Source of the DNA: Escherichia phage HK542
Strand: one strand, 5' to 3'
DNA: 38,964 nucleotides
Sequence record: NC_019769.1
Shown here: positions 12,305-21,702 of the stretch, piece after piece
Layout of the letters: every line of letters starts with the position of its first letter
How positions within the stretch are numbered: position 1 is the first letter of the stretch
The notes under the pieces: generated by a model
What the model was told of the DNA's origin: nothing
The model's input: the letters and a program-made list of their open reading frames with translations, nothing else
Databases searched by the model: none
Translations under genes and position numbers: made by a program

Positions 12305-13015
12305 ATGCGTCAGAAAACCATCGATGCGATTATGGCGCATGCTGCAGCTGAATATCCTCATGAGTGTTGCGGCGTGGTGGCGCAGAAAAGCCGCGTTGAA
12401 CGTTATTTCCCGTGCCGGAATCTTGCCGCGGCGCCGGAGGACAATTTTGTCCTTTGCCCCGAAGACTACGCAGCTGCTGAGGACTGGGGAACGGTGATCG
12501 CCATCGTTCACAGTCACCCTGACGCCACAACGCAGCCGAGCGAACTGGATAAAGCGCAATGCGACGCAACGCTTTTACCCTGGCATATTGTGAGCTGGCC
12601 GGAGGGGGATTTACGCACCATCCAGCCGCGCGGAGAACTGCCACTGCTGGAGCGTCCGTTTGTGCTTGGACACTTCGACTGCTGGGGGCTGGTAATGAGC
12701 TATTTCCGGCAAACGCATGGTATCGAGCTCCACGATTACCGGGTGGATTATCCCTGGTGGGAAAACGCCTATCCGGACAATTTTTATCAGGATTGCTGGT
12801 ATGAATGCGGATTCAGGGAGTTTGACGGCCCGCCTCAGGAAGGGGACCTCGTCATCATGCAGGTGCAGGCCGATAAGTGGAATCATGCCGGGATTTTACT
12901 GGAGGGTAACATGCTGCTGCACCACCTGTACGGACATCTGAGCCAGCGCGTGCCGTATGGTGGCTACTGGCAGGAAAGGACGATGAAGATTCTTAGACAT
13001 CAGAATTTTATTTAA
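12305..13015 (+). CDS. Tail assembly protein K-like (MPN/JAMM plus NlpC/P60 domains)
   Basis: 236 aa; HSHPDA JAMM-like motif N-terminally and a Cys-His (DCWGLV) peptidase-like region C-terminally. Confidence 0.8.
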   Translation: MRQKTIDAIMAHAAAEYPHECCGVVAQKSRVERYFPCRNLAAAPEDNFVLCPEDYAAAEDWGTVIAIVHSHPDATTQPSELDKAQCDATLLPWHIVSWPEGDLRTIQPRGELPLLERPFVLGHFDCWGLVMSYFRQTHGIELHDYRVDYPWWENAYPDNFYQDCWYECGFREFDGPPQEGDLVIMQVQADKWNHAGILLEGNMLLHHLYGHLSQRVPYGGYWQERTMKILRHQNFI

Positions 13016-13062: not shown

Positions 13063-13287
13063 ATGTATACAGTTGGGTTTGGTTGGATCTTCGTCGGTAT
13101 TTTTATTGGGTTAATTCTCTGGTTTTTCATCAACCGCGCCAGCGTCAGAGCGAACAGGCAGGTTGAATTACTTGAGTCTATCGACCAGAAATTATCAAAA
13201 ATAGTAGATCCAAACTTCGAGGCAAATAACAAAGACCAGTCGAAAGAAAACTACCTTGAAGAAGCAAGGAAAAAAGCTGGGCTTTGA
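13063..13287 (+). CDS. Small single-pass membrane protein (moron between K and I)
   Basis: 74 aa; AAGGAG RBS 7 nt upstream; one N-terminal TM helix (VGFGWIFVGIFIGLILWFFI) and a charged C-tail; AT-rich; own terminator. Confidence 0.5.
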   Translation: MYTVGFGWIFVGIFIGLILWFFINRASVRANRQVELLESIDQKLSKIVDPNFEANNKDQSKENYLEEARKKAGL

Positions 13288-13336: not shown

Positions 13337-13945
13337 ATGCAAGAGGTAATGACAAGAATTGAGCTAAGTGGCGTGCTAGCTAAGACATATGGAAGGGTTC
13401 ATCACCGTCTGGTTCGCACTACTGCTGAAGCCATTAATGCACTCGCGAAAACCATCAATGGATTCGAGAAATTCTTAAACACAAGCAAGGCCCGAGGGCT
13501 GACGTATGCCGTTTATAGAGATAAAAAGAATATTGGCGTTGATGATCTCGGCTTTCCCGTCACCGGCGAAGTGATCCGGATTGTCCCTGTAGTAATAGGG
13601 AGTAAAAAGGCTGGTCTTTTGCAGACAATCCTAGGGGCCGTGCTTATTACTGCTGCTGTATTGACTGGCCCTGGCGGTATTGGCGCTGCTTTCGCTGCTG
13701 GTGGATTGACGGGGTTTGCTGCTGCCACTGGCGCCTCGTTGGTCCTCGGTGGGGTTATTCAGCTTCTTTCACCACAGCCATCAGGCATAGCCAGCAAACA
13801 AAGCGCAGATAACCGTGCATCGTATGCATTCGGCGGTGTTACAAACACCGCGGCACAGGGGTACCCGGTGCCTCTGCTTTATGGTAAGCGTCGAATCGGC
13901 GGAGCGATTATTTCTGCAGGAATTTATGTCGAAGATCAGCAGTAG
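13337..13945 (+). CDS. Tail assembly protein I-like
   Basis: 202 aa with Gly/Ala-rich hydrophobic C-terminal half as in lambda gpI; directly precedes J. Confidence 0.75.
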   Translation: MQEVMTRIELSGVLAKTYGRVHHRLVRTTAEAINALAKTINGFEKFLNTSKARGLTYAVYRDKKNIGVDDLGFPVTGEVIRIVPVVIGSKKAGLLQTILGAVLITAAVLTGPGGIGAAFAAGGLTGFAAATGASLVLGGVIQLLSPQPSGIASKQSADNRASYAFGGVTNTAAQGYPVPLLYGKRRIGGAIISAGIYVEDQQ

Positions 13946-13998: not shown

Positions 13999-16900
13999 AT
14001 GGCAACTGCAACCGCGATTAAAGGCCGCAAAGGCGGTAGTTCAAAGACACGCACTCCAACTGAACAGCCCGATGATCTGCAGTCAGTTGCGAAGGCGAAA
14101 ATTTTAATCGCCCTTGGCGAGGGCGAGTTCTCCGGGCAATTAACCGGCAAAGATATCTACCTGGACGGAACAGCGCTGGAGAATGCTGACGGCTCCCAAA
14201 ACTTCAGCGGGGTAACGTGGGAGTTTCGCGCGGGAACGCAGGCGCAAAAATATATTCAGGGTATTCCCGGTACCGAAAACGAGATCAGCGTAGGAACTGA
14301 GGTATCAAGTGCCACAGCCTGGACGCGCACGTTTACCAATACGCAGCTTTCAGCAGTTCGCCTGCGTCTTAAATGGCCCTCGCTTTTCAAACAGGAAGAC
14401 GACGGCGATCTGGTGGGTTACTCGGTCAATTATGCGATTGACCTGCAGACTGACGGCGGCACATGGCAGACGGTACTCAATACCAGCGTGACCGGCAAAA
14501 CGACGTCTGGTTATGAGCGCAGCCACCGTATCGATTTACCGCAGGCTGGCAGCACATGGACAATACGTCTGCGTAAGATTACCTCTGACGCCAACAGCGC
14601 GAAGATCGGCGACACGATGATGCTGCAGAGCTTCACCGAGGTGATTGACGCCAAACTGCGCTACCCGAACACCGCGCTGCTCTACGTCGAATTCGACTCA
14701 AGCCAGTTCAACGGCTCTATTCCTCAAATTTCATGCGAACCGCGCGGCCGCGTTATCCGCGTTCCAGATACCTACGACCCTGAAACCCGCACTTATAGCG
14801 GTACATGGACCGGTGCGTTTAAGTGGGCATGGACGGATAACCCTGCGTGGATTTTTTACGACCTGGTTGTTTCTGACCGGTTCGGCCTTGGGCACCGTTT
14901 GACCGCTGCGAATATTGATAAATGGACGCTTTATCAGGTTGCTCAGTATTGTGATCAGATGGTACCAGACGGCAAAGGGGGCAACGGTACAGAACCACGC
15001 TATACCTGCAACGTGTACATTCAGGACCGGAACGACGCCTACACAGTCCTGCGTGATTTTGCCGCTATCTTCCGTGGCATGACCTACTGGGGCGGGGATC
15101 AGATTGTGGCCCTGGCTGACATGCCGCGCGATGTTGATTACAGCTATACGCGCGCTAACGTTGTTGGCGGTCGCTTCACCTATTCGAGCAGCACCACGAA
15201 AAGCCGCTACACCACAGCGCTGGTTTCATGGTCAGACCCGGGTAACGCTTATGCCGACGCGATGGAGCCGGTATTTGAGCAGGCGCTGGTGGCGCGGTAC
15301 GGCTTCAATCAGCTGGAAATGACAGCCATCGGCTGCACCAGGCAGTCAGAGGCGAACCGAAAGGGGCGCTGGGGTATTCTCACCAATAACAAGGATCGCG
15401 TTGTTTCGTTTGATGTCGGGCTGGACGGAAACATTCCGCAGCCTGGCTACATCATCGCCGTGGCAGACGAGCTGCTTTCCGGAAAGGTTATGGGCGGCCG
15501 CATCAGCGCCGTTAACGGTCGCGTTATCAAACTTGACCGCGTAGCTGATGCAGCACCAGGTGATCGCCTTATTCTCAACCTTCCCTCCGGAGCGTCGCAG
15601 AGCAGGACCATTCAGGCCGTGAACGGGGAATCAGTCACAGTCACCACGGCATACAGTGAGACGCCACAGGCCGAAGCTGTTTGGGTGGTTGAATCTGACG
15701 AGCTCTACGCGCAGCAGTATCGAGTTGTCAGCGTTTCCGATAACAATGATGGCACTTTCTCGATTACCGGCGCATGGCACGACCCGGATAAATATGCCCG
15801 TATCGATACCGGAGCCATCATTGACCAACGGCCGGTGAGCGTGATCCCGCCGGGCAACCAGTCGCCGCCTGCGAATATCGTGATCAGCTCGTTTTCCGTG
15901 GTTCAGCAAAATATCAGCGTCGAAACAATGCGCGTGAGCTGGGACCAGGCGCAGAACGCTATCGCCTATGAAGCGCAATGGCGCCGCAACGACGGGAACT
16001 GGGTTAACGTGCCGCGCACCTCCACCACGTCATTCGACGTCCCGGGGATTTATGCCGGGCGCTACCTGGTGCGGGTGCGCGCAATCAATGCCGCAGAAAT
16101 TTCATCCGGATGGGGCTATTCAGAAGAGAAAACGCTGACGGGTAAAGTGGGCAATCCACCGAAGCCGGTTGGCTTTATCGCCTCTGAAAACGTGGTGTTC
16201 GGTATCGAGCTGAACTGGGGATTCCCGGCGAATACCGACGACACGCTGAAGACGGAAATTCAGTACAGCCTGACCGGGAGCGAAGATGATGCCATTCTTC
16301 TGAGCGATGTTCCCTATCCGCAGCGCAAGTATCAGCAGATGGGCCTGAAGGCGGGGCAAATTTTCTGGTACCGGGCGCAGCTGGTGGACAGGACAGGCAA
16401 TGAGTCGGGTTATACCGACTGGGTACGTGGACAGGCCAGTATCGATGTGTCGGATATCACCGATGTTATCCTGGAGGACATTAAAGAATCGGACACGTTC
16501 AAGGAACTGATCGAAAGCGCAGTAGACAGCAACGAAAAAATTGCTGGTATGGCTGACGATATCAGACAGAACGCTGACGATCTGGAGCAACAGGCGCTGG
16601 CCATCAAGGAAAACGCCGATGGGCTCGCCCAGGCCGAGGTGAAGATTGACGAAATCTCTGTCTCGATGGATGGCATGACGGGAGGCGTTAAAAACTCCTC
16701 TATCGCGGTTATTCAGAACAGCCTCGCGCAGGTCACCAGCCGTCGATCCCAGACAGCCACCAACGCCGGGAACAGCGCCAGCATCGACCGTATCGATACC
16801 ACCATTGCAGATACCAGCCAGGCGGTTGCCCGTGCGCTGGTTACGCTTGATGCTTCTGCCGGTGGTAATGTCTCAAACGCGACCGATCTCACCGAAACCC

Positions 16901-17454
16901 TTGCTGATTTCACGCAGGCCTCGGCCACGAAAATCAACTCCCTGACGGTTACGGTAAACGGCCAGACAGCGGCTATTAACCAGACCGCGCAGGCGGTGGC
17001 TGATGTGAACGGTAACCTCAGCGCGATGTATAACATCAAGGTTGGCGTTTCCAGCAACGGTCAGTATTACGCCGCGGGCATGGGGATTGGTGTTGAGAAT
17101 ACGCCGTCCGGGATGCAGTCGCAGGTCATCTTCCTGGCTGACCGCTTCGCCGTCACCACGGCAGCAGGTAACAGCGTGGCTTTGCCGTTTGTGATCCAGA
17201 ATGGACAGACATTCATCCGGGCCAGTTTCATCCAGGACGGCACTATCAGCAACGCAAAGATTGGTAATTTTATCCAGTCGAACAATTATGTTGCTGGTTC
17301 TGCTGGCTGGAAGCTTGATAAAGGGGGGACGTTTGAGAACTACGGTTCGACTGCTGGTGAGGGAGCCATGAAACTGACAAATCAGACGATCAGCGTCAAA
17401 GATGGCAGTAATGTTCTTAGGGTGCAGGTTGGACGATTAACGGGAGTATTCTGA
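13999..17454 (+). CDS. Host specificity / central tail fibre protein J-like
   Basis: 1151 aa, the largest tail ORF downstream of I; lambda gpJ-like size and position. Confidence 0.88.
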   Translation: MATATAIKGRKGGSSKTRTPTEQPDDLQSVAKAKILIALGEGEFSGQLTGKDIYLDGTALENADGSQNFSGVTWEFRAGTQAQKYIQGIPGTENEISVGTEVSSATAWTRTFTNTQLSAVRLRLKWPSLFKQEDDGDLVGYSVNYAIDLQTDGGTWQTVLNTSVTGKTTSGYERSHRIDLPQAGSTWTIRLRKITSDANSAKIGDTMMLQSFTEVIDAKLRYPNTALLYVEFDSSQFNGSIPQISCEPRGRVIRVPDTYDPETRTYSGTWTGAFKWAWTDNPAWIFYDLVVSDRFGLGHRLTAANIDKWTLYQVAQYCDQMVPDGKGGNGTEPRYTCNVYIQDRNDAYTVLRDFAAIFRGMTYWGGDQIVALADMPRDVDYSYTRANVVGGRFTYSSSTTKSRYTTALVSWSDPGNAYADAMEPVFEQALVARYGFNQLEMTAIGCTRQSEANRKGRWGILTNNKDRVVSFDVGLDGNIPQPGYIIAVADELLSGKVMGGRISAVNGRVIKLDRVADAAPGDRLILNLPSGASQSRTIQAVNGESVTVTTAYSETPQAEAVWVVESDELYAQQYRVVSVSDNNDGTFSITGAWHDPDKYARIDTGAIIDQRPVSVIPPGNQSPPANIVISSFSVVQQNISVETMRVSWDQAQNAIAYEAQWRRNDGNWVNVPRTSTTSFDVPGIYAGRYLVRVRAINAAEISSGWGYSEEKTLTGKVGNPPKPVGFIASENVVFGIELNWGFPANTDDTLKTEIQYSLTGSEDDAILLSDVPYPQRKYQQMGLKAGQIFWYRAQLVDRTGNESGYTDWVRGQASIDVSDITDVILEDIKESDTFKELIESAVDSNEKIAGMADDIRQNADDLEQQALAIKENADGLAQAEVKIDEISVSMDGMTGGVKNSSIAVIQNSLAQVTSRRSQTATNAGNSASIDRIDTTIADTSQAVARALVTLDASAGGNVSNATDLTETLADFTQASATKINSLTVTVNGQTAAINQTAQAVADVNGNLSAMYNIKVGVSSNGQYYAAGMGIGVENTPSGMQSQVIFLADRFAVTTAAGNSVALPFVIQNGQTFIRASFIQDGTISNAKIGNFIQSNNYVAGSAGWKLDKGGTFENYGSTAGEGAMKLTNQTISVKDGSNVLRVQVGRLTGVF

Positions 17455-17455
17455 A

Positions 17456-17758
17456 ATGGCTTATGGAATACAGACCTGGGATGCTTCAGGAAAACCCAAC
17501 AACTATGGCATCAAACCCGTTTCCGTCGTTGGGCGAATACAGCTGGCTGCCGGGCAAACCTCCGGCAGCTGGTCTTTTACGGTGCCCTCAGGAATGAAAG
17601 TTGGTTTTGTTCTTTCACTTGATGAAGGAGGTAACAGCGTAGGGCGGCGCATTGTCGCGTCAGGGAGCACAATAACCGTAAGCGCTGCATCTTCTGTAGG
17701 CCTGGGAAATTATCCGGCCTCAAAATGTGAGGTGGTTGTTTTCATGGAGAAAGCATAA
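17456..17758 (+). CDS. Hypothetical tail-associated protein
   Basis: 100-aa ORF starting 2 nt after J stop. Confidence 0.45.
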   Translation: MAYGIQTWDASGKPNNYGIKPVSVVGRIQLAAGQTSGSWSFTVPSGMKVGFVLSLDEGGNSVGRRIVASGSTITVSAASSVGLGNYPASKCEVVVFMEKA

Positions 17759-18396
17759 TGGCCGAATTTGGCGCGATGATATTAATGGACAACGGGAACC
17801 CATTTGTAACGCCCCAGTCAACGCCTTTTTGTCTTTACGGCAAGTACACTTTCAACTCCTCTGCTAATGGCAGTTCGCAGCAGGTTGCTCAGAATATTGC
17901 ATTAAATGCTGACTACCCTGTGATGGTATTTATCAGGACCACAAATACCGCCCAGCCCACGCCAGTAATATCTTACCGGAACGGCGGAAATATATATGTC
18001 GCGGGGGTTAATCCTTATAACCAGAGCTTCACGTTAACTGCATATATATTTGCCATATTTCCACAGACGTTACCGAAGTGGGGGATGGCAATCTGGGATT
18101 CGAGCGGGAAGCTGGTACTCACTAATGAGTCCCGCGTGCTGTCAGACTTGCAGACAATCGGAACGCCTGGAGCAAACGGCGGGATTAACATTGACCAGAC
18201 GCTTGATGGTTCATGGGCAGTGGCTCCATCAAGGCTGGGGCAAGTGAACAGAAACGACGCTTACTCATCTTGTAGGTATTCAGGCACAAGTACAAGAATA
18301 AACGCCGGTACAGCCGCAAATACACCTGGCGGTGCTGGAGGGGTGATAAATAATGGAATTATCCTGACAGCAATTAAAACAGACGCCTATGATTGA
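17758..18396 (+). CDS. Hypothetical tail-associated protein
   Basis: 212-aa ORF with TAATG overlap to the upstream ORF. Confidence 0.45.
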   Translation: MAEFGAMILMDNGNPFVTPQSTPFCLYGKYTFNSSANGSSQQVAQNIALNADYPVMVFIRTTNTAQPTPVISYRNGGNIYVAGVNPYNQSFTLTAYIFAIFPQTLPKWGMAIWDSSGKLVLTNESRVLSDLQTIGTPGANGGINIDQTLDGSWAVAPSRLGQVNRNDAYSSCRYSGTSTRINAGTAANTPGGAGGVINNGIILTAIKTDAYD

Positions 18397-18503
18397 TTAT
18401 TTTGAGCGATCAATAACAAATAATTTATCTATCTAATCAATTATACCCATCGATTATGTATTGGTATCTTCGAAGCTACTGAATACCTCTGGATACTATC
18501 AAA

Positions 18504-18737
18504 ATGAAAAGGCTAATTATCTGCATAGCGGGCGCTTTAATGCTGTCTGGTTGCGCTGGTGTACTTGAGAAACAGAAACCGATTTGCAGCGGCACGGCAT
18601 ATATGGGTGGCCATGAGAATACCGTTATGATTTACGCCGTTCGAAAGCAAAACAACCAGACGCAATACCGGGCCGGATATCCCTTTAACTGGCGCTGGGT
18701 AAGTGCGAACACATTCACAAGCACGACATGTAAATAA
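18504..18737 (+). CDS. Small lipoprotein (moron)
   Basis: 77 aa; signal peptide with lipobox LSGC; AT-rich upstream leader and downstream terminator. Confidence 0.6.
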   Translation: MKRLIICIAGALMLSGCAGVLEKQKPICSGTAYMGGHENTVMIYAVRKQNNQTQYRAGYPFNWRWVSANTFTSTTCK

Positions 18738-18757
18738 CTCATGATTTTCAATGCAAA

Positions 18758-18782
18758 CCTCGCCTCGGCGGGGTTTTTTATT
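18758..18782 (+). terminator. Intrinsic terminator after lipoprotein gene
   Basis: cctcgc-ctcg-gcgggg followed by ttttttatt. Confidence 0.6.
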
Positions 18783-18795
18783 GCCTGGAGAAAAT

Positions 18796-20148
18796 ATGCT
18801 TTATAACACTGGAACCATCGCCATTAACGGAAACAGCGCCACCGGCACGGGCACGAACTGGACGGCACCCGCCAGCCAGGTTCGCGCTGGCCAGACGATT
18901 ATCGTGATGTCTAACCCGGTGCAGCTGTTTCAGATTTCATCCGTGAACAGCGCCACGTCAATGACGGTTACTCCAGCTGCTTCCCCGGCGCTGAGCGGCC
19001 AGAAGTATGGAATTCTTGTGTCGGACATTATCTCGGTCGACGGACTGGCACAGGCCATGTCACAGCTCATCAACGAGTACGATGAGAATATTGGTGCATG
19101 GGAGACGTTCGCTACTACCTCAGCGAACCAGATTATCACTGTAACCATCAACGGTACCTCCGTGAATATTCCGGGCATTGGTGGCCTGGCTCGAAAAGGG
19201 GCAAACAGCGATATCACGGAGCTGAAAGGGCTCACTACTGCGCTTTCTATTGCGCAGGGCGGCACCGGTGCAACGAACGCTGCAGACGTTCGCACAAACC
19301 TCGGTTTGGGAACAGCGGCTACATCCAATACCTTGACCAATGTTGTAGACCAAAGCGCTGGGGCGCTTGTAAGAAACAGTGATTTCGGTATCGGTGGTAA
19401 TGGTGGCGCAGGGGAAGGTGTGCCTATTGGTAGCTATGGCAATAATGCAAACTACATGGCATTAAATGGCTGGTACGGTGGTGCGGGTGTTAACGCCGTA
19501 AACCATTTTGACGGCTTCTCCCCATTATTGACAATGTGCCGGTTCGCTGGTGGTTACATTGGACAAATTCAGATTACTAAATCCGGTAAAATGGGTATTC
19601 GTGGAGGTACTGGAGCAACAACTTCAAATCAGGGCACATGGACACCGTGGTATGAGGTTTACAGCACTGGTAACACGACAAAATCCAGCGACGGTACACT
19701 GAAGGCTGCGTCTCCGGTTGCACGTATCGTTAAAAGCCAGGGGGAATGCCAGCGCGCCGATATAACTGAGGATGGTTTCTCCTGGTGCGGCTGTGGTACG
19801 GCGAACGCCGAGGCGGAGGGAATAACCATTTCCCGCCTCGAGGTGGGTGTTTACTTGCTGGCCGGTTCGGCAGGACTTGCGTCAGAGGGATGGCAACTGC
19901 TGCCGCCAATGGACCCTGGCGGAATGGGAGAGCTTGGCGTTGTCGAAGCAGAACAGACCGAAAGCGGCGAGCTGACAATCCGTCTTTTCAAGCGAAAATA
20001 TATCCTGAGCGATGAAGGTGAGGTCATCAAAACCAAAGGTGAACCGATTGACGTCCCGGCGAACAGCTGGATCGATGTTCGTCTTGATATGCCAGAAAAC
20101 AGTGTCTGGAATCAGCGCCAGAAAGAGGCGATTGAACCTGCTTCATAA
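18796..20148 (+). CDS. Tail fibre protein
   Basis: 450 aa from ATG 18796 with GGAG RBS; contains the tail-fibre repeat motif SIAQGGTGATNAADVRTNLGLG; the track start at 18751 would include the terminator hairpin. Confidence 0.75.
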   Translation: MLYNTGTIAINGNSATGTGTNWTAPASQVRAGQTIIVMSNPVQLFQISSVNSATSMTVTPAASPALSGQKYGILVSDIISVDGLAQAMSQLINEYDENIGAWETFATTSANQIITVTINGTSVNIPGIGGLARKGANSDITELKGLTTALSIAQGGTGATNAADVRTNLGLGTAATSNTLTNVVDQSAGALVRNSDFGIGGNGGAGEGVPIGSYGNNANYMALNGWYGGAGVNAVNHFDGFSPLLTMCRFAGGYIGQIQITKSGKMGIRGGTGATTSNQGTWTPWYEVYSTGNTTKSSDGTLKAASPVARIVKSQGECQRADITEDGFSWCGCGTANAEAEGITISRLEVGVYLLAGSAGLASEGWQLLPPMDPGGMGELGVVEAEQTESGELTIRLFKRKYILSDEGEVIKTKGEPIDVPANSWIDVRLDMPENSVWNQRQKEAIEPAS

Positions 20149-20481
20149 AGAAAACCGCCGCCTGTCGTATGCAAGCACGAGCCACGGCTGGCTGTCTAAC
20201 TTTCGATAGTGCGAGTATTGAATGATTTCCAGCCGCTACCGATTTTACTATGTTTTCAGTAGAACACTTAGACAAAACTGAGACACACAAATCTTTGCAC
20301 TGGATTGCAAGGCTTTGTGCTCTTCTGTGAATGTGTGGCTATATGTTTGAAGATCGTTGTGCCGTATTTGTGACATATATATGGCAACATCATGCATCAA
20401 CTTTCTGTTTGTGCCATCAACTATAGCTTAGTGAATGCGGTTAATGCTTGCTAAAACAGATAGTTATGATTGGTGCTACAG

Positions 20482-20527
20482 ATTCGTAATGCGAAGGTCG
20501 TAGGTTCGACTCCTATTATCGGCACCA
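20482..20527 (+). other. attP core, identical to the 3' portion of a tRNA-Thr(CGU) gene
   Basis: attcgtaatgcgaaggtcgtaggttcgactcctattatcggcacca has anticodon loop, T-arm and acceptor 3' strand plus CCA, but no matching 5' half; adjacent to int. Confidence 0.75.
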
Positions 20528-20541
20528 TTTAAATCAATGAG

Positions 20542-21702
20542 TTACCTCGCATTTAAGTAAACCACGTTCTCCTCTTGTGCCGTATTTGTGCCATTGCGAC
20601 TTATAATCGCATCGATTTTGCTCGCGTGCTCGGTGAGATGCCCGGCTGAAAGGTGGGCGTATCTTTGAACCATTTCGAGAGTTTCCCATCCTCCCATCTC
20701 TTTAAGTGCAAGAAGAGAGACACCGGACTGAACCAGCCAGCTTGCCCAAGTATGCCTCAGGTCATGGAAGCGGAAGTTGCTAATGCCTGCCCGCTTTAAC
20801 GCTCCCTTCCATGCCTTGTTGCTGTCGGTTCTCATCTTCCTTACCGCTGCTGTTTTTGTTCCGTCGCTTCGGTAGGCAGGTTTGGTGTGGACAAACACCC
20901 ATCTCTTATGGAGCCCCTGCTGTTTTCTTAATATCTGGCATGCGGTTTCGTTAAGAGGAACTCCGATCGCATTGCCAGCTTTTGTTTCATCAGGGTGCAT
21001 CCATGCCATTTTCTTATCCAGATCGACCTGTGACCACTCAAGGTCTGTAACGTTGGAACGGCGAAGGCCTGTCGTGATTGCAAACATGACCACAGGGAAG
21101 AAATGAGGAGCAATTTCTGCAAACAGGCGCTTAGATTCCTCTTCTGTAAGCCATCTAATGCGTCCATTCTTAACGCGTGGTGTTGATATTTTGGGCGCCC
21201 TGTCAAGCCATCCCCATTCAACAGCCATATTGAGAATAGCGCGAAGTATTGCCAGATGCCGCGTCTTCGTTCCTTTGCTTGCCAGCTTTGGTTTATACTC
21301 CGGCACTGGCTTGCCAAGCCGCAAACACCTGTCCCGGCTCATCTCCCAGTTCAGGCGATGGCGGCGGTTTTCCATCCCGTCTACCGCCTCCATTATTTTT
21401 TCTGTTGTTATGTCAGAGAGAATGGTTTCTCTGAAGTGCAACATCCAGAACGATATAATGCTCTTGTCATCATCAATGGACTTCTTATCCGATTTCTCTC
21501 GCAGCCACCGTATGCAGGCTTCCTTGAATAGCTTTTTCGGTGATTCCCCGAGATTTTTTACTCTCCACGCTTCTGCTTTTAGACGATCGTGAAGTTCTTG
21601 CGCTTGCCTTTTGTCCGATGTTTCAAGAGAGCGTCTAACTCTTGATCCATCTGGCGCGACGAAATCACAGTGCCACGTGCCACCGCGTAGTTTGATTGAC
21701 AT
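20542..21702 (-). CDS. int: Tyrosine integrase, P22-like
   Basis: 386 aa; from memory, closely matches P22 Int including the C-terminal catalytic region RFHDLRHTWASWLVQ...VQRYAHL. Confidence 0.93.
   Translation of the reverse strand: MSIKLRGGTWHCDFVAPDGSRVRRSLETSDKRQAQELHDRLKAEAWRVKNLGESPKKLFKEACIRWLREKSDKKSIDDDKSIISFWMLHFRETILSDITTEKIMEAVDGMENRRHRLNWEMSRDRCLRLGKPVPEYKPKLASKGTKTRHLAILRAILNMAVEWGWLDRAPKISTPRVKNGRIRWLTEEESKRLFAEIAPHFFPVVMFAITTGLRRSNVTDLEWSQVDLDKKMAWMHPDETKAGNAIGVPLNETACQILRKQQGLHKRWVFVHTKPAYRSDGTKTAAVRKMRTDSNKAWKGALKRAGISNFRFHDLRHTWASWLVQSGVSLLALKEMGGWETLEMVQRYAHLSAGHLTEHASKIDAIISRNGTNTAQEENVVYLNAR

What the first reader, a model, noticed from the sequence alone, without database searches (positions are those of the whole stretch)
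18397..18790. Lipoprotein moron after the J-associated genes: possible Cor/Llp-type receptor-blocking protein
An AT-rich stand-alone unit (AT-rich leader, 77-aa lipoprotein with lipobox LSGC, own terminator) is inserted between the tail-tip genes and the tail fibre gene. Small outer-membrane lipoproteins encoded near tail genes in lambdoid phages (Cor, and Llp of T5) block the phage receptor and give superinfection exclusion. The analogy rests on position and features only.
Basis: inference. Interest (0 to 1): 0.55.

Follow-up and report, generated by a model that had tools for sequence, protein, structure and literature searches.

The report
Known Cor phage-exclusion lipoprotein gene

The parts
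13999..17454 (+). gpJ-like central tail fibre / tail tip protein (1151 aa); context
   Evidence: PHROG 31 'central tail fiber J', E = 0. The last 150 aa are identical to HK022 J, and the last 250 aa are 79% identical.
17456..17758 (+). 100-aa ORF, first gene of the locus downstream of J (PHROG label 'outer membrane protein'); context. Together with the next ORF it is the candidate FhuA-type receptor-binding locus.
   Evidence: phrog_557, E = 2e-36. Homologous to HK022 gp25, phi80 gp22, T1 orf32 and ES18 gp30. The literature places this locus with cor in FhuA-dependent phages (PMC13164509; PMC8594841).
17758..18396 (+). 212-aa ORF, second gene of the locus downstream of J (PHROG label 'membrane associated protein'); context
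   Evidence: phrog_425, E = 1e-74. Homologues in 348 phage records, including T1 (50% identity) and ES18 (36%). No signal peptide or transmembrane segment is visible in the sequence.
18364..18393 (+). Candidate sigma-70 promoter CTGACA-N18-TATGAT inside the end of the 212-aa ORF (unverified)
   Evidence: Matches 10 of 12 positions, but the count of such sites does not exceed shuffles, and the -35 hexamer is not conserved in phi80.
18397..18503 (+). AT-rich non-coding leader of cor (G+C 0.29)
   Evidence: Composition. Identical to HK022 apart from one base at its 5' end; 77-87% identical to phi80 in 60-nt blocks.
18440..18470 (+). Counterpart of the promoter annotated in the phi80 record: -35 ATTATA at 18440-18445, extended -10 TGGTATCTT at 18462-18470, implied start near 18478 (unverified here)
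   Evidence: phi80 record FN582354 annotates -35, -10 and a transcription start for cor. Positions were transferred through alignment A2.
18504..18737 (+). cor: 77-aa precursor of the phage exclusion lipoprotein Cor. Signal peptide 18504-18551, lipidated Cys17 at 18552-18554, mature protein 61 aa with conserved Cys28 and Cys76.
18755..18782 (+). Intrinsic terminator of cor: 9-pair hairpin, loop CUCG, T-run
   Evidence: Annotated as a terminator in mEp235 and phi80. The arms are conserved in phi80; only the loop differs.
18787..20148 (+). Side tail fibre gene (453 aa from the ATG at 18787); context, downstream boundary of the unit
   Evidence: phrog_1591, E = 5e-145; Pfam PF25670, E = 5e-32.

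Best explanation
This is the cor gene of an HK022-type lambdoid phage.

Shown here: it encodes a 77-aa lipoprotein precursor identical to HK022 Cor, with its own terminator and an AT-rich leader. It sits directly after the two small genes downstream of J.

Established elsewhere for Cor of HK022, phi80, N15 and mEp167: cells expressing Cor lose FhuA function. They exclude FhuA-dependent phages and take up less ferrichrome.

Inferred mechanism: signal peptidase II cleaves before Cys17 and the cysteine is acylated. [quoted passage not shown] The 61-aa small beta-barrel, probably braced by a Cys28-Cys76 disulfide, binds the periplasmic face or plug of FhuA, as T5 Llp does. FhuA is then locked in a state whose outer loops no longer accept the phage receptor-binding proteins. 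This protects lysogens from HK022-like, phi80, N15, T1 and T5-type phages, and during lytic growth it keeps progeny from adsorbing to infected cells and debris. Because its J end and post-J locus are identical to those of FhuA-dependent HK022-group phages, this phage most probably uses FhuA itself, so Cor is the exclusion protein matched to its own receptor-binding module.
For: - Family and identity. GenBank notes for HK022 and phi80 cor read 'moron', 'phage exclusion' and 'blocks TonB-dependent outer membrane FhuA receptor'.
- Window identity: an HK022-like phage, 98.6% identical to ECP1 over 91% of bases 1-25000. The last 150 aa of J are identical to HK022. FhuA is the HK022 receptor (PMC6814406).
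- Function of Cor: PMC3594210, bioRxiv 10.64898/2026.03.26.714494 and PMC9311878, all citing Uc-Mass 2004 and Arguijo-Hernandez 2018.
- Shared layout with Llp: both precursors are 77 aa, with a lipobox Cys plus two further Cys at matching places. Cor has C17/C28/C76; Llp has C16/C26/C73. PMC9586334 says the Llp disulphide is shared with Cor proteins and that Cor likely works like Llp.
- Independent transcription unit: cor lies on the opposite strand in T1 and ES18. It is absent from a Klebsiella Webervirus that keeps J and both post-J genes.
- Cassette linked to FhuA use: PMC13164509, PMC8594841.
Against: - No experiment here: the exclusion phenotype, lipidation, localisation and FhuA binding are all taken from relatives.
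- The molecular mechanism of Cor is stated to be unresolved. [quoted passage not shown]
- Sequence homology to Llp is not demonstrable beyond the signal peptide and first strand (hhalign, 29 columns, probability 80%).
- Foldseek does not separate Llp (E = 0.39, rank 38) from Tudor and SH3-like small barrels.
- The promoter is only predicted.
Confidence: 0.88

Rival explanations
1. Cor excludes FhuA-dependent phages indirectly. It does not dock on the periplasmic face of FhuA like Llp. Instead it acts through, or together with, other outer membrane proteins (OmpA, OmpC, OmpF, OmpW, LamB, Slp) that alter FhuA's environment or accessibility.
For: A review summarising Arguijo-Hernandez 2018 reports Cor interactions with these proteins. 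The 2026 Llp preprint says the molecular mechanism of Cor has not been elucidated. Sequence similarity to Llp is negligible.
Against: The best structural match of the model is FhuA-bound Llp, and the cysteine layout and size are shared. An AlphaFold3 model of T1-like Cor docks on the periplasmic side of FhuA with ipTM 0.84 (PMC13164509). Cor also abolishes ferrichrome uptake, which points to FhuA itself.
Confidence: 0.1
2. The gene is not a lysogenic-conversion moron with its own promoter. It is a late gene read through from the tail operon, and its main role is lytic: it prevents progeny from adsorbing to infected cells and debris, as Llp does for T5.
For: It lies on the same strand as the tail genes and directly downstream of them. 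The promoter-like sites are weak and no more frequent than in shuffles. Virulent T1-like phages also carry cor. The literature mentions protection of progeny from debris.
Against: The AT-rich 107-nt leader and a dedicated terminator are conserved. The phi80 record annotates a promoter and transcription start. cor is transcribed against the tail genes in T1 and ES18, so it has its own promoter there, with TTGCAA or TTGCTT and TACAAT hexamers visible upstream. Lysogens of cor+ phages are reported to exclude FhuA-dependent phages. The two roles are not mutually exclusive.
Confidence: 0.1
3. The lipoprotein is a structural or assembly accessory of the tail tip, part of the three-gene module after J, and not a host-directed exclusion factor.
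For: It is tightly linked to the two post-J genes in many phages. In the comparison with phi80, the mosaic boundary falls inside the 212-aa ORF, so its C-terminal half and cor diverge together.
Against: A lipoprotein signal peptide sends the protein to the cell envelope, away from cytoplasmic tail assembly. Webervirus phages keep J and both post-J genes without cor. The orientation of cor flips between phages. Cor alone is reported to inactivate FhuA.
Confidence: 0.02

Closest known systems
Cor (gp27) of phage HK022, and the identical Cor of HK75, mEp234, mEp235, HK106 and mEpX1
   Same: 100% amino-acid identity. The leader and terminator are identical apart from one base at the leader's 5' end. 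The position is the same: after J, the 100-aa ORF and the 212-aa ORF, and before the side tail fibre.
   Different: Nothing in the unit itself. The surrounding phage is a different mosaic: the closest is ECP1, the tail fibre C-terminus and parts of J differ, and the last 250 aa of J are 79% identical to HK022.
Cor of phi80 and N15 (the original 'conversion resistance' lipoproteins) and of mEp167
   Same: Same family. phi80 Cor is 79% identical, with the same length, lipobox and Cys pattern, the same locus and the same terminator arms. Reported function: inactivation of FhuA.
   Different: About 20% sequence divergence, concentrated in residues 30-45. phi80 has an antisense 'gene 25' moron next to cor that is interrupted by a stop codon in this window.
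Cor of T1-like phages (Drexlerviridae), Dhillonvirus and ES18
   Same: Same family: T1 is 36% identical and the Cys pair is conserved. cor lies next to homologues of the same two post-J genes.
   Different: cor is on the opposite strand, convergent with the tail genes, and is carried by virulent phages. It therefore acts as a lytic-cycle exclusion function there, not as lysogenic conversion.
Llp, lytic conversion lipoprotein of phage T5 (PDB 8A60 with FhuA; 7QJF free)
   Different: 11-12% identity over the structural alignment. The profile comparison aligns only the signal peptide and the first strand. No shared Pfam, NCBIfam or PHROG family. The T5 receptor-binding protein pb5 is unrelated to the post-J locus here.
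Rtp45 of phage Rtp (exclusion lipoprotein against LptD-dependent phages)
   Same: A small periplasmic lipoprotein encoded in the locus downstream of the J homologue, beside the receptor-binding protein, that blocks that phage's own receptor.
   Different: Its target is LptDE. It acts by steric displacement of loops and not by allostery through a TonB-dependent transporter plug. It was not tested for sequence or fold relation here.
HK97 gp15 moron
   Same: A small exclusion protein encoded by a moron inserted in a lambdoid tail operon.
   Different: gp15 is an inner-membrane protein that blocks DNA entry. It is not a lipoprotein and does not act on a receptor.

Membership tests
Cor phage exclusion lipoproteins (NCBIfam NF047972, PHROG 1119) | Full-length match to the family profile above the curated cut-off | tested here: met
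   138.8 bits against a cut-off of 31, residues 1-76 on profile positions 1-76 of 78. PHROG 1119 at E = 2.4e-37.
Cor phage exclusion lipoproteins (NCBIfam NF047972, PHROG 1119) | Lipoprotein signal peptide with a lipobox and an invariant Cys | tested here: met
   MKRLIICIAGALM-LSGC. C17 is invariant in 51 homologues.
Cor phage exclusion lipoproteins (NCBIfam NF047972, PHROG 1119) | Two further conserved cysteines in the mature protein (presumed disulfide) and the conserved RAGYPFxW motif | tested here: met
   C28 is nearly invariant and C76 invariant. G58, P60, F61 and W65 are invariant. All are conserved in T1 and ES18 Cor. The disulfide itself was not verified.
Cor phage exclusion lipoproteins (NCBIfam NF047972, PHROG 1119) | Encoded directly after the gpJ homologue and the two small post-J genes | tested here: met
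   Order J, 100-aa ORF, 212-aa ORF, cor, tail fibre, as in HK022, phi80, T1 and ES18.
Cor phage exclusion lipoproteins (NCBIfam NF047972, PHROG 1119) | The carrying phage uses FhuA as its receptor | tested here: inconclusive
   Inferred only. The last 150 aa of J are identical to HK022. The 212-aa post-J protein is 100% identical to those of mEp235, mEp234 and HK633, and the post-J region is 96.5% identical to HK022 in DNA. HK022 uses FhuA. No plating data exist for this phage.
Cor phage exclusion lipoproteins (NCBIfam NF047972, PHROG 1119) | Expression abolishes FhuA functions: exclusion of FhuA-dependent phages and reduced ferrichrome uptake | not testable with these tools
   Reported for relatives, including HK022 Cor of identical sequence, in secondary sources. 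The primary papers are not held.
T5 Llp (lytic conversion lipoprotein) | Detectable sequence homology to Llp over the mature domain | tested here: not met
   hhalign of the Cor profile against Llp aligns only 29 columns, from the signal peptide to the second Cys, at probability 80%. phmmer of Cor against PDB sequences does not find Llp.
T5 Llp (lytic conversion lipoprotein) | Same fold as Llp | tested here: met
T5 Llp (lytic conversion lipoprotein) | [quoted passage not shown] | not testable with these tools
   Only single-chain prediction is available here. A published AF3 model for T1-like Cor supports periplasmic docking.
Moron (Juhala et al. 2000 sense) | Own terminator | tested here: met
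   Hairpin and T-run at 18755-18782, annotated as a terminator in relatives.
Moron (Juhala et al. 2000 sense) | Own promoter active in the prophage | tested here: inconclusive
   Two candidate sites, 18364-18393 and 18440-18470. The consensus scan finds no excess over shuffles, and there are no transcript data.
Moron (Juhala et al. 2000 sense) | Composition different from the surrounding genes | tested here: inconclusive
   The leader has G+C 0.29, against 0.51 for the window. The ORF has G+C 0.474 and GC3 0.526, which is not distinct from its neighbours.
Moron (Juhala et al. 2000 sense) | Present or absent as a unit between otherwise syntenic genomes | tested here: met
   Klebsiella phage SegesCirculi has J and both post-J genes but no cor. 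cor is inverted in T1 and ES18. However, against phi80 the mosaic boundary lies inside the 212-aa ORF and not at the edge of the unit.

The most novel reading that the evidence does not exclude
Against phi80, the DNA from the end of J to the first third of the 212-aa ORF is about 100% identical. The C-terminal half of that ORF, the leader and cor then diverge together (57-87% identity). The most novel reading my evidence does not exclude is that Cor and the C-terminal half of the putative FhuA-binding protein are exchanged and evolve as a matched pair. Cor variants would then be tuned to the particular FhuA conformation or loops that their own receptor-binding protein recognises, which would give allele-specific rather than blanket exclusion among FhuA-dependent phages. 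The plainer reading is a single recombination breakpoint plus physical linkage.
Probability: 0.1. Interest if true: 0.4.

Novelty: already known. Interest (0 to 1): 0.08.

Why it matters
This adds little. Cor has been described since the 1980s-1990s for phi80 and N15, was annotated in HK022 in 2000, and has its own NCBIfam equivalog and PHROG family. This copy is identical to the HK022 protein.

Its practical value is for annotation. It marks the phage as very probably FhuA-dependent. It predicts that lysogens resist T1, T5, phi80 and HK022-type phages, and probably colicin M and albomycin, at the cost of ferrichrome uptake.

The one open question it touches is general, not specific to this window: the molecular mechanism of Cor, whether direct Llp-like binding to FhuA or dependence on other outer membrane proteins.

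Tried and rejected
- Pfam has no family for Cor; only sub-threshold MiAMP1 and LPAM_1 hits appeared.
- PADLOC has no model for Cor, the two post-J proteins or the 74-aa ORF.
- phmmer against PDB sequences found only a signal-peptide match to TraV.
- hhalign of Cor against Llp did not extend beyond the N-terminal 29 columns.
- An Rfam scan of 18250-18900 gave only sub-threshold hits driven by the terminator hairpin (istR, 24 bits against a gathering score of 45), so no known RNA element lies in the leader.
- I checked whether the phi80 antisense 'gene 25' moron exists here. It is broken by a stop codon.
- The eLife HK022 lysogen paper has no data on cor expression. It only confirms FhuA as the receptor.
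- The primary papers (Uc-Mass 2004, Wietzorrek 2006, Arguijo-Hernandez 2018) are not in the held library, so their content is cited second-hand.
- I did not use the second structure job on the 100-aa and 212-aa proteins. A 2026 paper reports no structural hits for them.

Full report
**1. The observation**

The window holds an ORF at 18504..18737 on the + strand that encodes 77 aa, MKRLIICIAGALMLSGCAGVLEKQKPICSGTAYMGGHENTVMIYAVRKQNNQTQYRAGYPFNWRWVSANTFTSTTCK. Its N-terminus has the three parts of a bacterial lipoprotein signal peptide:
- basic residues K2 and R3;
- a hydrophobic core;
- the lipobox L-S-G-C, with Cys17 at 18552-18554.

Ala follows the cysteine. By the established Lol sorting rule (my own knowledge), this predicts outer-membrane localisation.

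Upstream lies a 107-nt non-coding leader (18397-18503) with G+C 0.29, in the lowest 0.13% of all 107-nt windows of this 38,964-base sequence. Downstream there is a 9-pair hairpin at 18755-18776 with a T-run. The terminator scan found it, and it folds at -16.2 kcal/mol, z = -2.2. The same element is annotated as a rho-independent terminator in phages mEp235 and phi80.

The side tail fibre gene starts at the ATG at 18787, behind a GGAG. It matches phrog_1591 at E = 5e-145. The in-frame ATG at 18751 in the mechanical ORF list lies inside the terminator region and is unlikely to be the real start.

Two refinements are needed:
- The ORF itself is not AT-rich. Its G+C is 0.474 and its GC3 is 0.526, like its neighbours.
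- A promoter is not shown. The best consensus match, CTGACA-N18-TATGAT at 18364-18393, lies within the end of the preceding ORF. The number of promoter-like sites in the region (4) does not exceed the number in shuffles (4.5 +/- 2.3).

**2. What it is**

The protein matches the curated NCBIfam equivalog NF047972, "phage exclusion lipoprotein Cor", at 138.8 bits against a cut-off of 31, over its whole length. It also matches PHROG 1119, "Cor superinfection exclusion protein", at E = 2.4e-37. Pfam has no family for it.

tblastn against 50,697 phage records finds 235 records with a homologue:

| Phage | Identity to this Cor |
|---|---|
| HK022, HK75, mEp234, mEp235, HK106, mEpX1 | 100% |
| phi80, mEp213, HK225 | 79% |
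| Dhillonvirus phages | about 44% |
| T1-like phages | about 35% |

The window as a whole is an HK022-like lambdoid phage. The closest record is Escherichia phage ECP1, at 98.6% identity over 91% of bases 1-25000. The HK022 GenBank record annotates the identical gene as "cor protein; moron gene product; gp27; phage exclusion". RefSeq calls the same unit "cor: phage exclusion lipoprotein Cor" in the 11 of 5,426 complete E. coli genomes that carry it at the DNA level.

The leader, ORF and terminator are identical to HK022 apart from one base at the leader's 5' end (a second difference lies just upstream, in the end of the 212-aa ORF). Against phi80 they are 72-92% identical in 60-nt blocks, with the terminator arms conserved.

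**3. Family features**

An alignment of 51 homologues from the large protein database (55-97% identity) shows:
- C17, G35, I43, Y44, G58, P60, F61, W65 and C76 invariant;
- C28 nearly invariant.

The mature 61-aa protein therefore has the lipidated cysteine plus a conserved cysteine pair. T1 and ES18 Cor keep the same pattern.

**4. Relation to Llp, tested independently**

The AlphaFold2 model built from this alignment has mean pLDDT 82.9, and above 89 from residue 31 on. It shows a five-stranded small beta-barrel behind the signal helix.

- Foldseek is not discriminating. Llp ranks 38th at E = 0.39.
- At sequence level, the Cor profile aligns with Llp only from the signal peptide to the second cysteine (29 columns, probability 80%).
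- The layouts are nevertheless parallel. Both precursors are 77 aa. Cysteines lie at 17/28/76 in Cor and 16/26/73 in Llp.

Published work reaches the same view. [quoted passage not shown] A 2026 preprint that modelled HK022 Cor explicitly concludes that Cor and Llp belong to one family. An AF3 model docks T1-like Cor on the periplasmic side of FhuA (PMC13164509).

In short, Cor works like Llp. It is a member of the Cor family, and membership of the Llp family is supported by fold only.

**5. Context: not an isolated insertion**

The two ORFs between J and cor are homologues of HK022 gp25/gp26, phi80 gp22/gp23, T1 orf32/orf31 and ES18 gp30/gp31:
- the 100-aa ORF, phrog_557;
- the 212-aa ORF, phrog_425, found in 348 phage records.

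Despite their PHROG labels ("outer membrane protein", "membrane associated protein"), I see no signal peptide or transmembrane segment in either sequence. The literature describes the locus downstream of gpJ homologues as the site of the bona fide receptor-binding proteins with their cognate exclusion proteins (PMC8594841; bioRxiv 10.64898/2026.04.02.716166). It also describes the three-gene arrangement with cor as a hallmark of FhuA-dependent phages T1, HK022, N15, ES18 and phi80 (PMC13164509).

The last 150 residues of J in the window are identical to HK022 J, and FhuA is the HK022 receptor (PMC6814406). I therefore infer that this phage uses FhuA and that Cor is matched to its own receptor module.

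**6. Is cor a separate unit (a moron)?**

In favour:
- It has its own terminator.
- It has the AT-rich leader.
- It is inverted relative to the tail genes in T1 and ES18, where good TTGCAA or TTGCTT and TACAAT hexamers precede it.
- It is absent from Klebsiella phage SegesCirculi. That phage keeps J and both post-J genes, followed after 27 bp by a tail fibre gene on the other strand.

Against a clean cassette: in the comparison with phi80, bases 17250-17970 are about 100% identical. This stretch covers the end of J, the 100-aa ORF and the first third of the 212-aa ORF. Identity then falls to 57-87% from about 18090 to 18750. The mosaic boundary therefore lies inside the 212-aa ORF, not at the edge of cor.

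A candidate promoter equivalent to the one annotated in phi80 lies at 18440-18470 (ATTATA ... TGGTATCTT). Neither this site nor the one at 18364-18393 is verified.

**7. Mechanism, and what is shown versus inferred**

- Shown here: the gene, its family, its identity to HK022 Cor, its lipoprotein features, its terminator, its context and its predicted Llp-like fold.
- Taken from the literature on identical or close relatives: Cor inactivates FhuA, excludes FhuA-dependent phages and reduces ferrichrome uptake.
- Inferred: lipidation at Cys17, sorting to the periplasmic leaflet of the outer membrane, a Cys28-Cys76 disulfide, and docking on the periplasmic face or plug of FhuA with allosteric closure of the outer loops as in Llp.

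The main rival for the mechanistic step is an indirect action that needs other outer membrane proteins. The field regards the Cor mechanism as unresolved.

**8. Other checks**

No Rfam family reaches its threshold in 18250-18900. No PADLOC model matches. The phi80 antisense "gene 25" is interrupted by a stop codon here.

**9. Verdict**

The feature is the already known cor gene, identical to that of HK022. Interest is low.

Noticed in passing
window 13063-13287 (+): A 74-aa ORF with an N-terminal transmembrane helix (MYTVGFGWIFVGIFIGLILWFFINR...) and G+C 0.40 sits between the gpK-like gene (12305-13015) and the gpI-like gene (13337-13945). It matches phrog_5031, of unknown function, at E = 7e-41 and has no PADLOC hit. 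It looks like a second moron-like insertion in the tail operon, in a position reminiscent of the HK97 gp15 type of inner-membrane exclusion protein.
   Followed up: partly
window 17250-18750, compared with phi80 locus L002: The DNA is about 100% identical to phi80 from the last ~70 codons of J through the 100-aa ORF and the first third of the 212-aa ORF (17250-17970). Identity then drops to 57-87% across the C-terminal half of the 212-aa ORF, the leader and cor. The recombination boundary lies inside the 212-aa ORF.
   Followed up: partly
window 17456-18396 (+): [quoted passage not shown] According to recent literature they are the candidate FhuA-specific receptor-binding locus downstream of J, and their structures and exact roles are still unknown.
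   Followed up: partly
L005 (Klebsiella phage vB_KpnS_SegesCirculi) 1-2690: About 111 Klebsiella phage records have homologues of the 212-aa protein (33-35% identity). In the one I inspected, J and both post-J genes are present without any cor gene. So the post-J pair is not strictly tied to cor, and perhaps not to E. coli-type FhuA exclusion.
   Followed up: partly
window 18792-19049 (-), compared with L002 2800-3057 (-): phi80 annotates an antisense 'gene 25' moron, with its own promoter and terminator, overlapping the start of the tail fibre gene. The counterpart in the window has an in-frame stop (W to stop) and so is not intact.
   Followed up: yes
window 18397-18790, compared with E. coli genomes: Only 11 of 5,426 complete E. 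coli genomes carry this cor unit at the DNA level. Two of them are laboratory strains with the phi80-type allele (XL10-Gold and JCL301, 79.5% identity), consistent with phi80 remnants in lab strains.
   Followed up: no
window 20542-21702 (-) and about 20200-20540: An integrase gene follows the tail fibre gene after a lower-G+C non-coding stretch that should hold attP, as in HK022 and mEp235, where attP is annotated at the same relative place.
   Followed up: no
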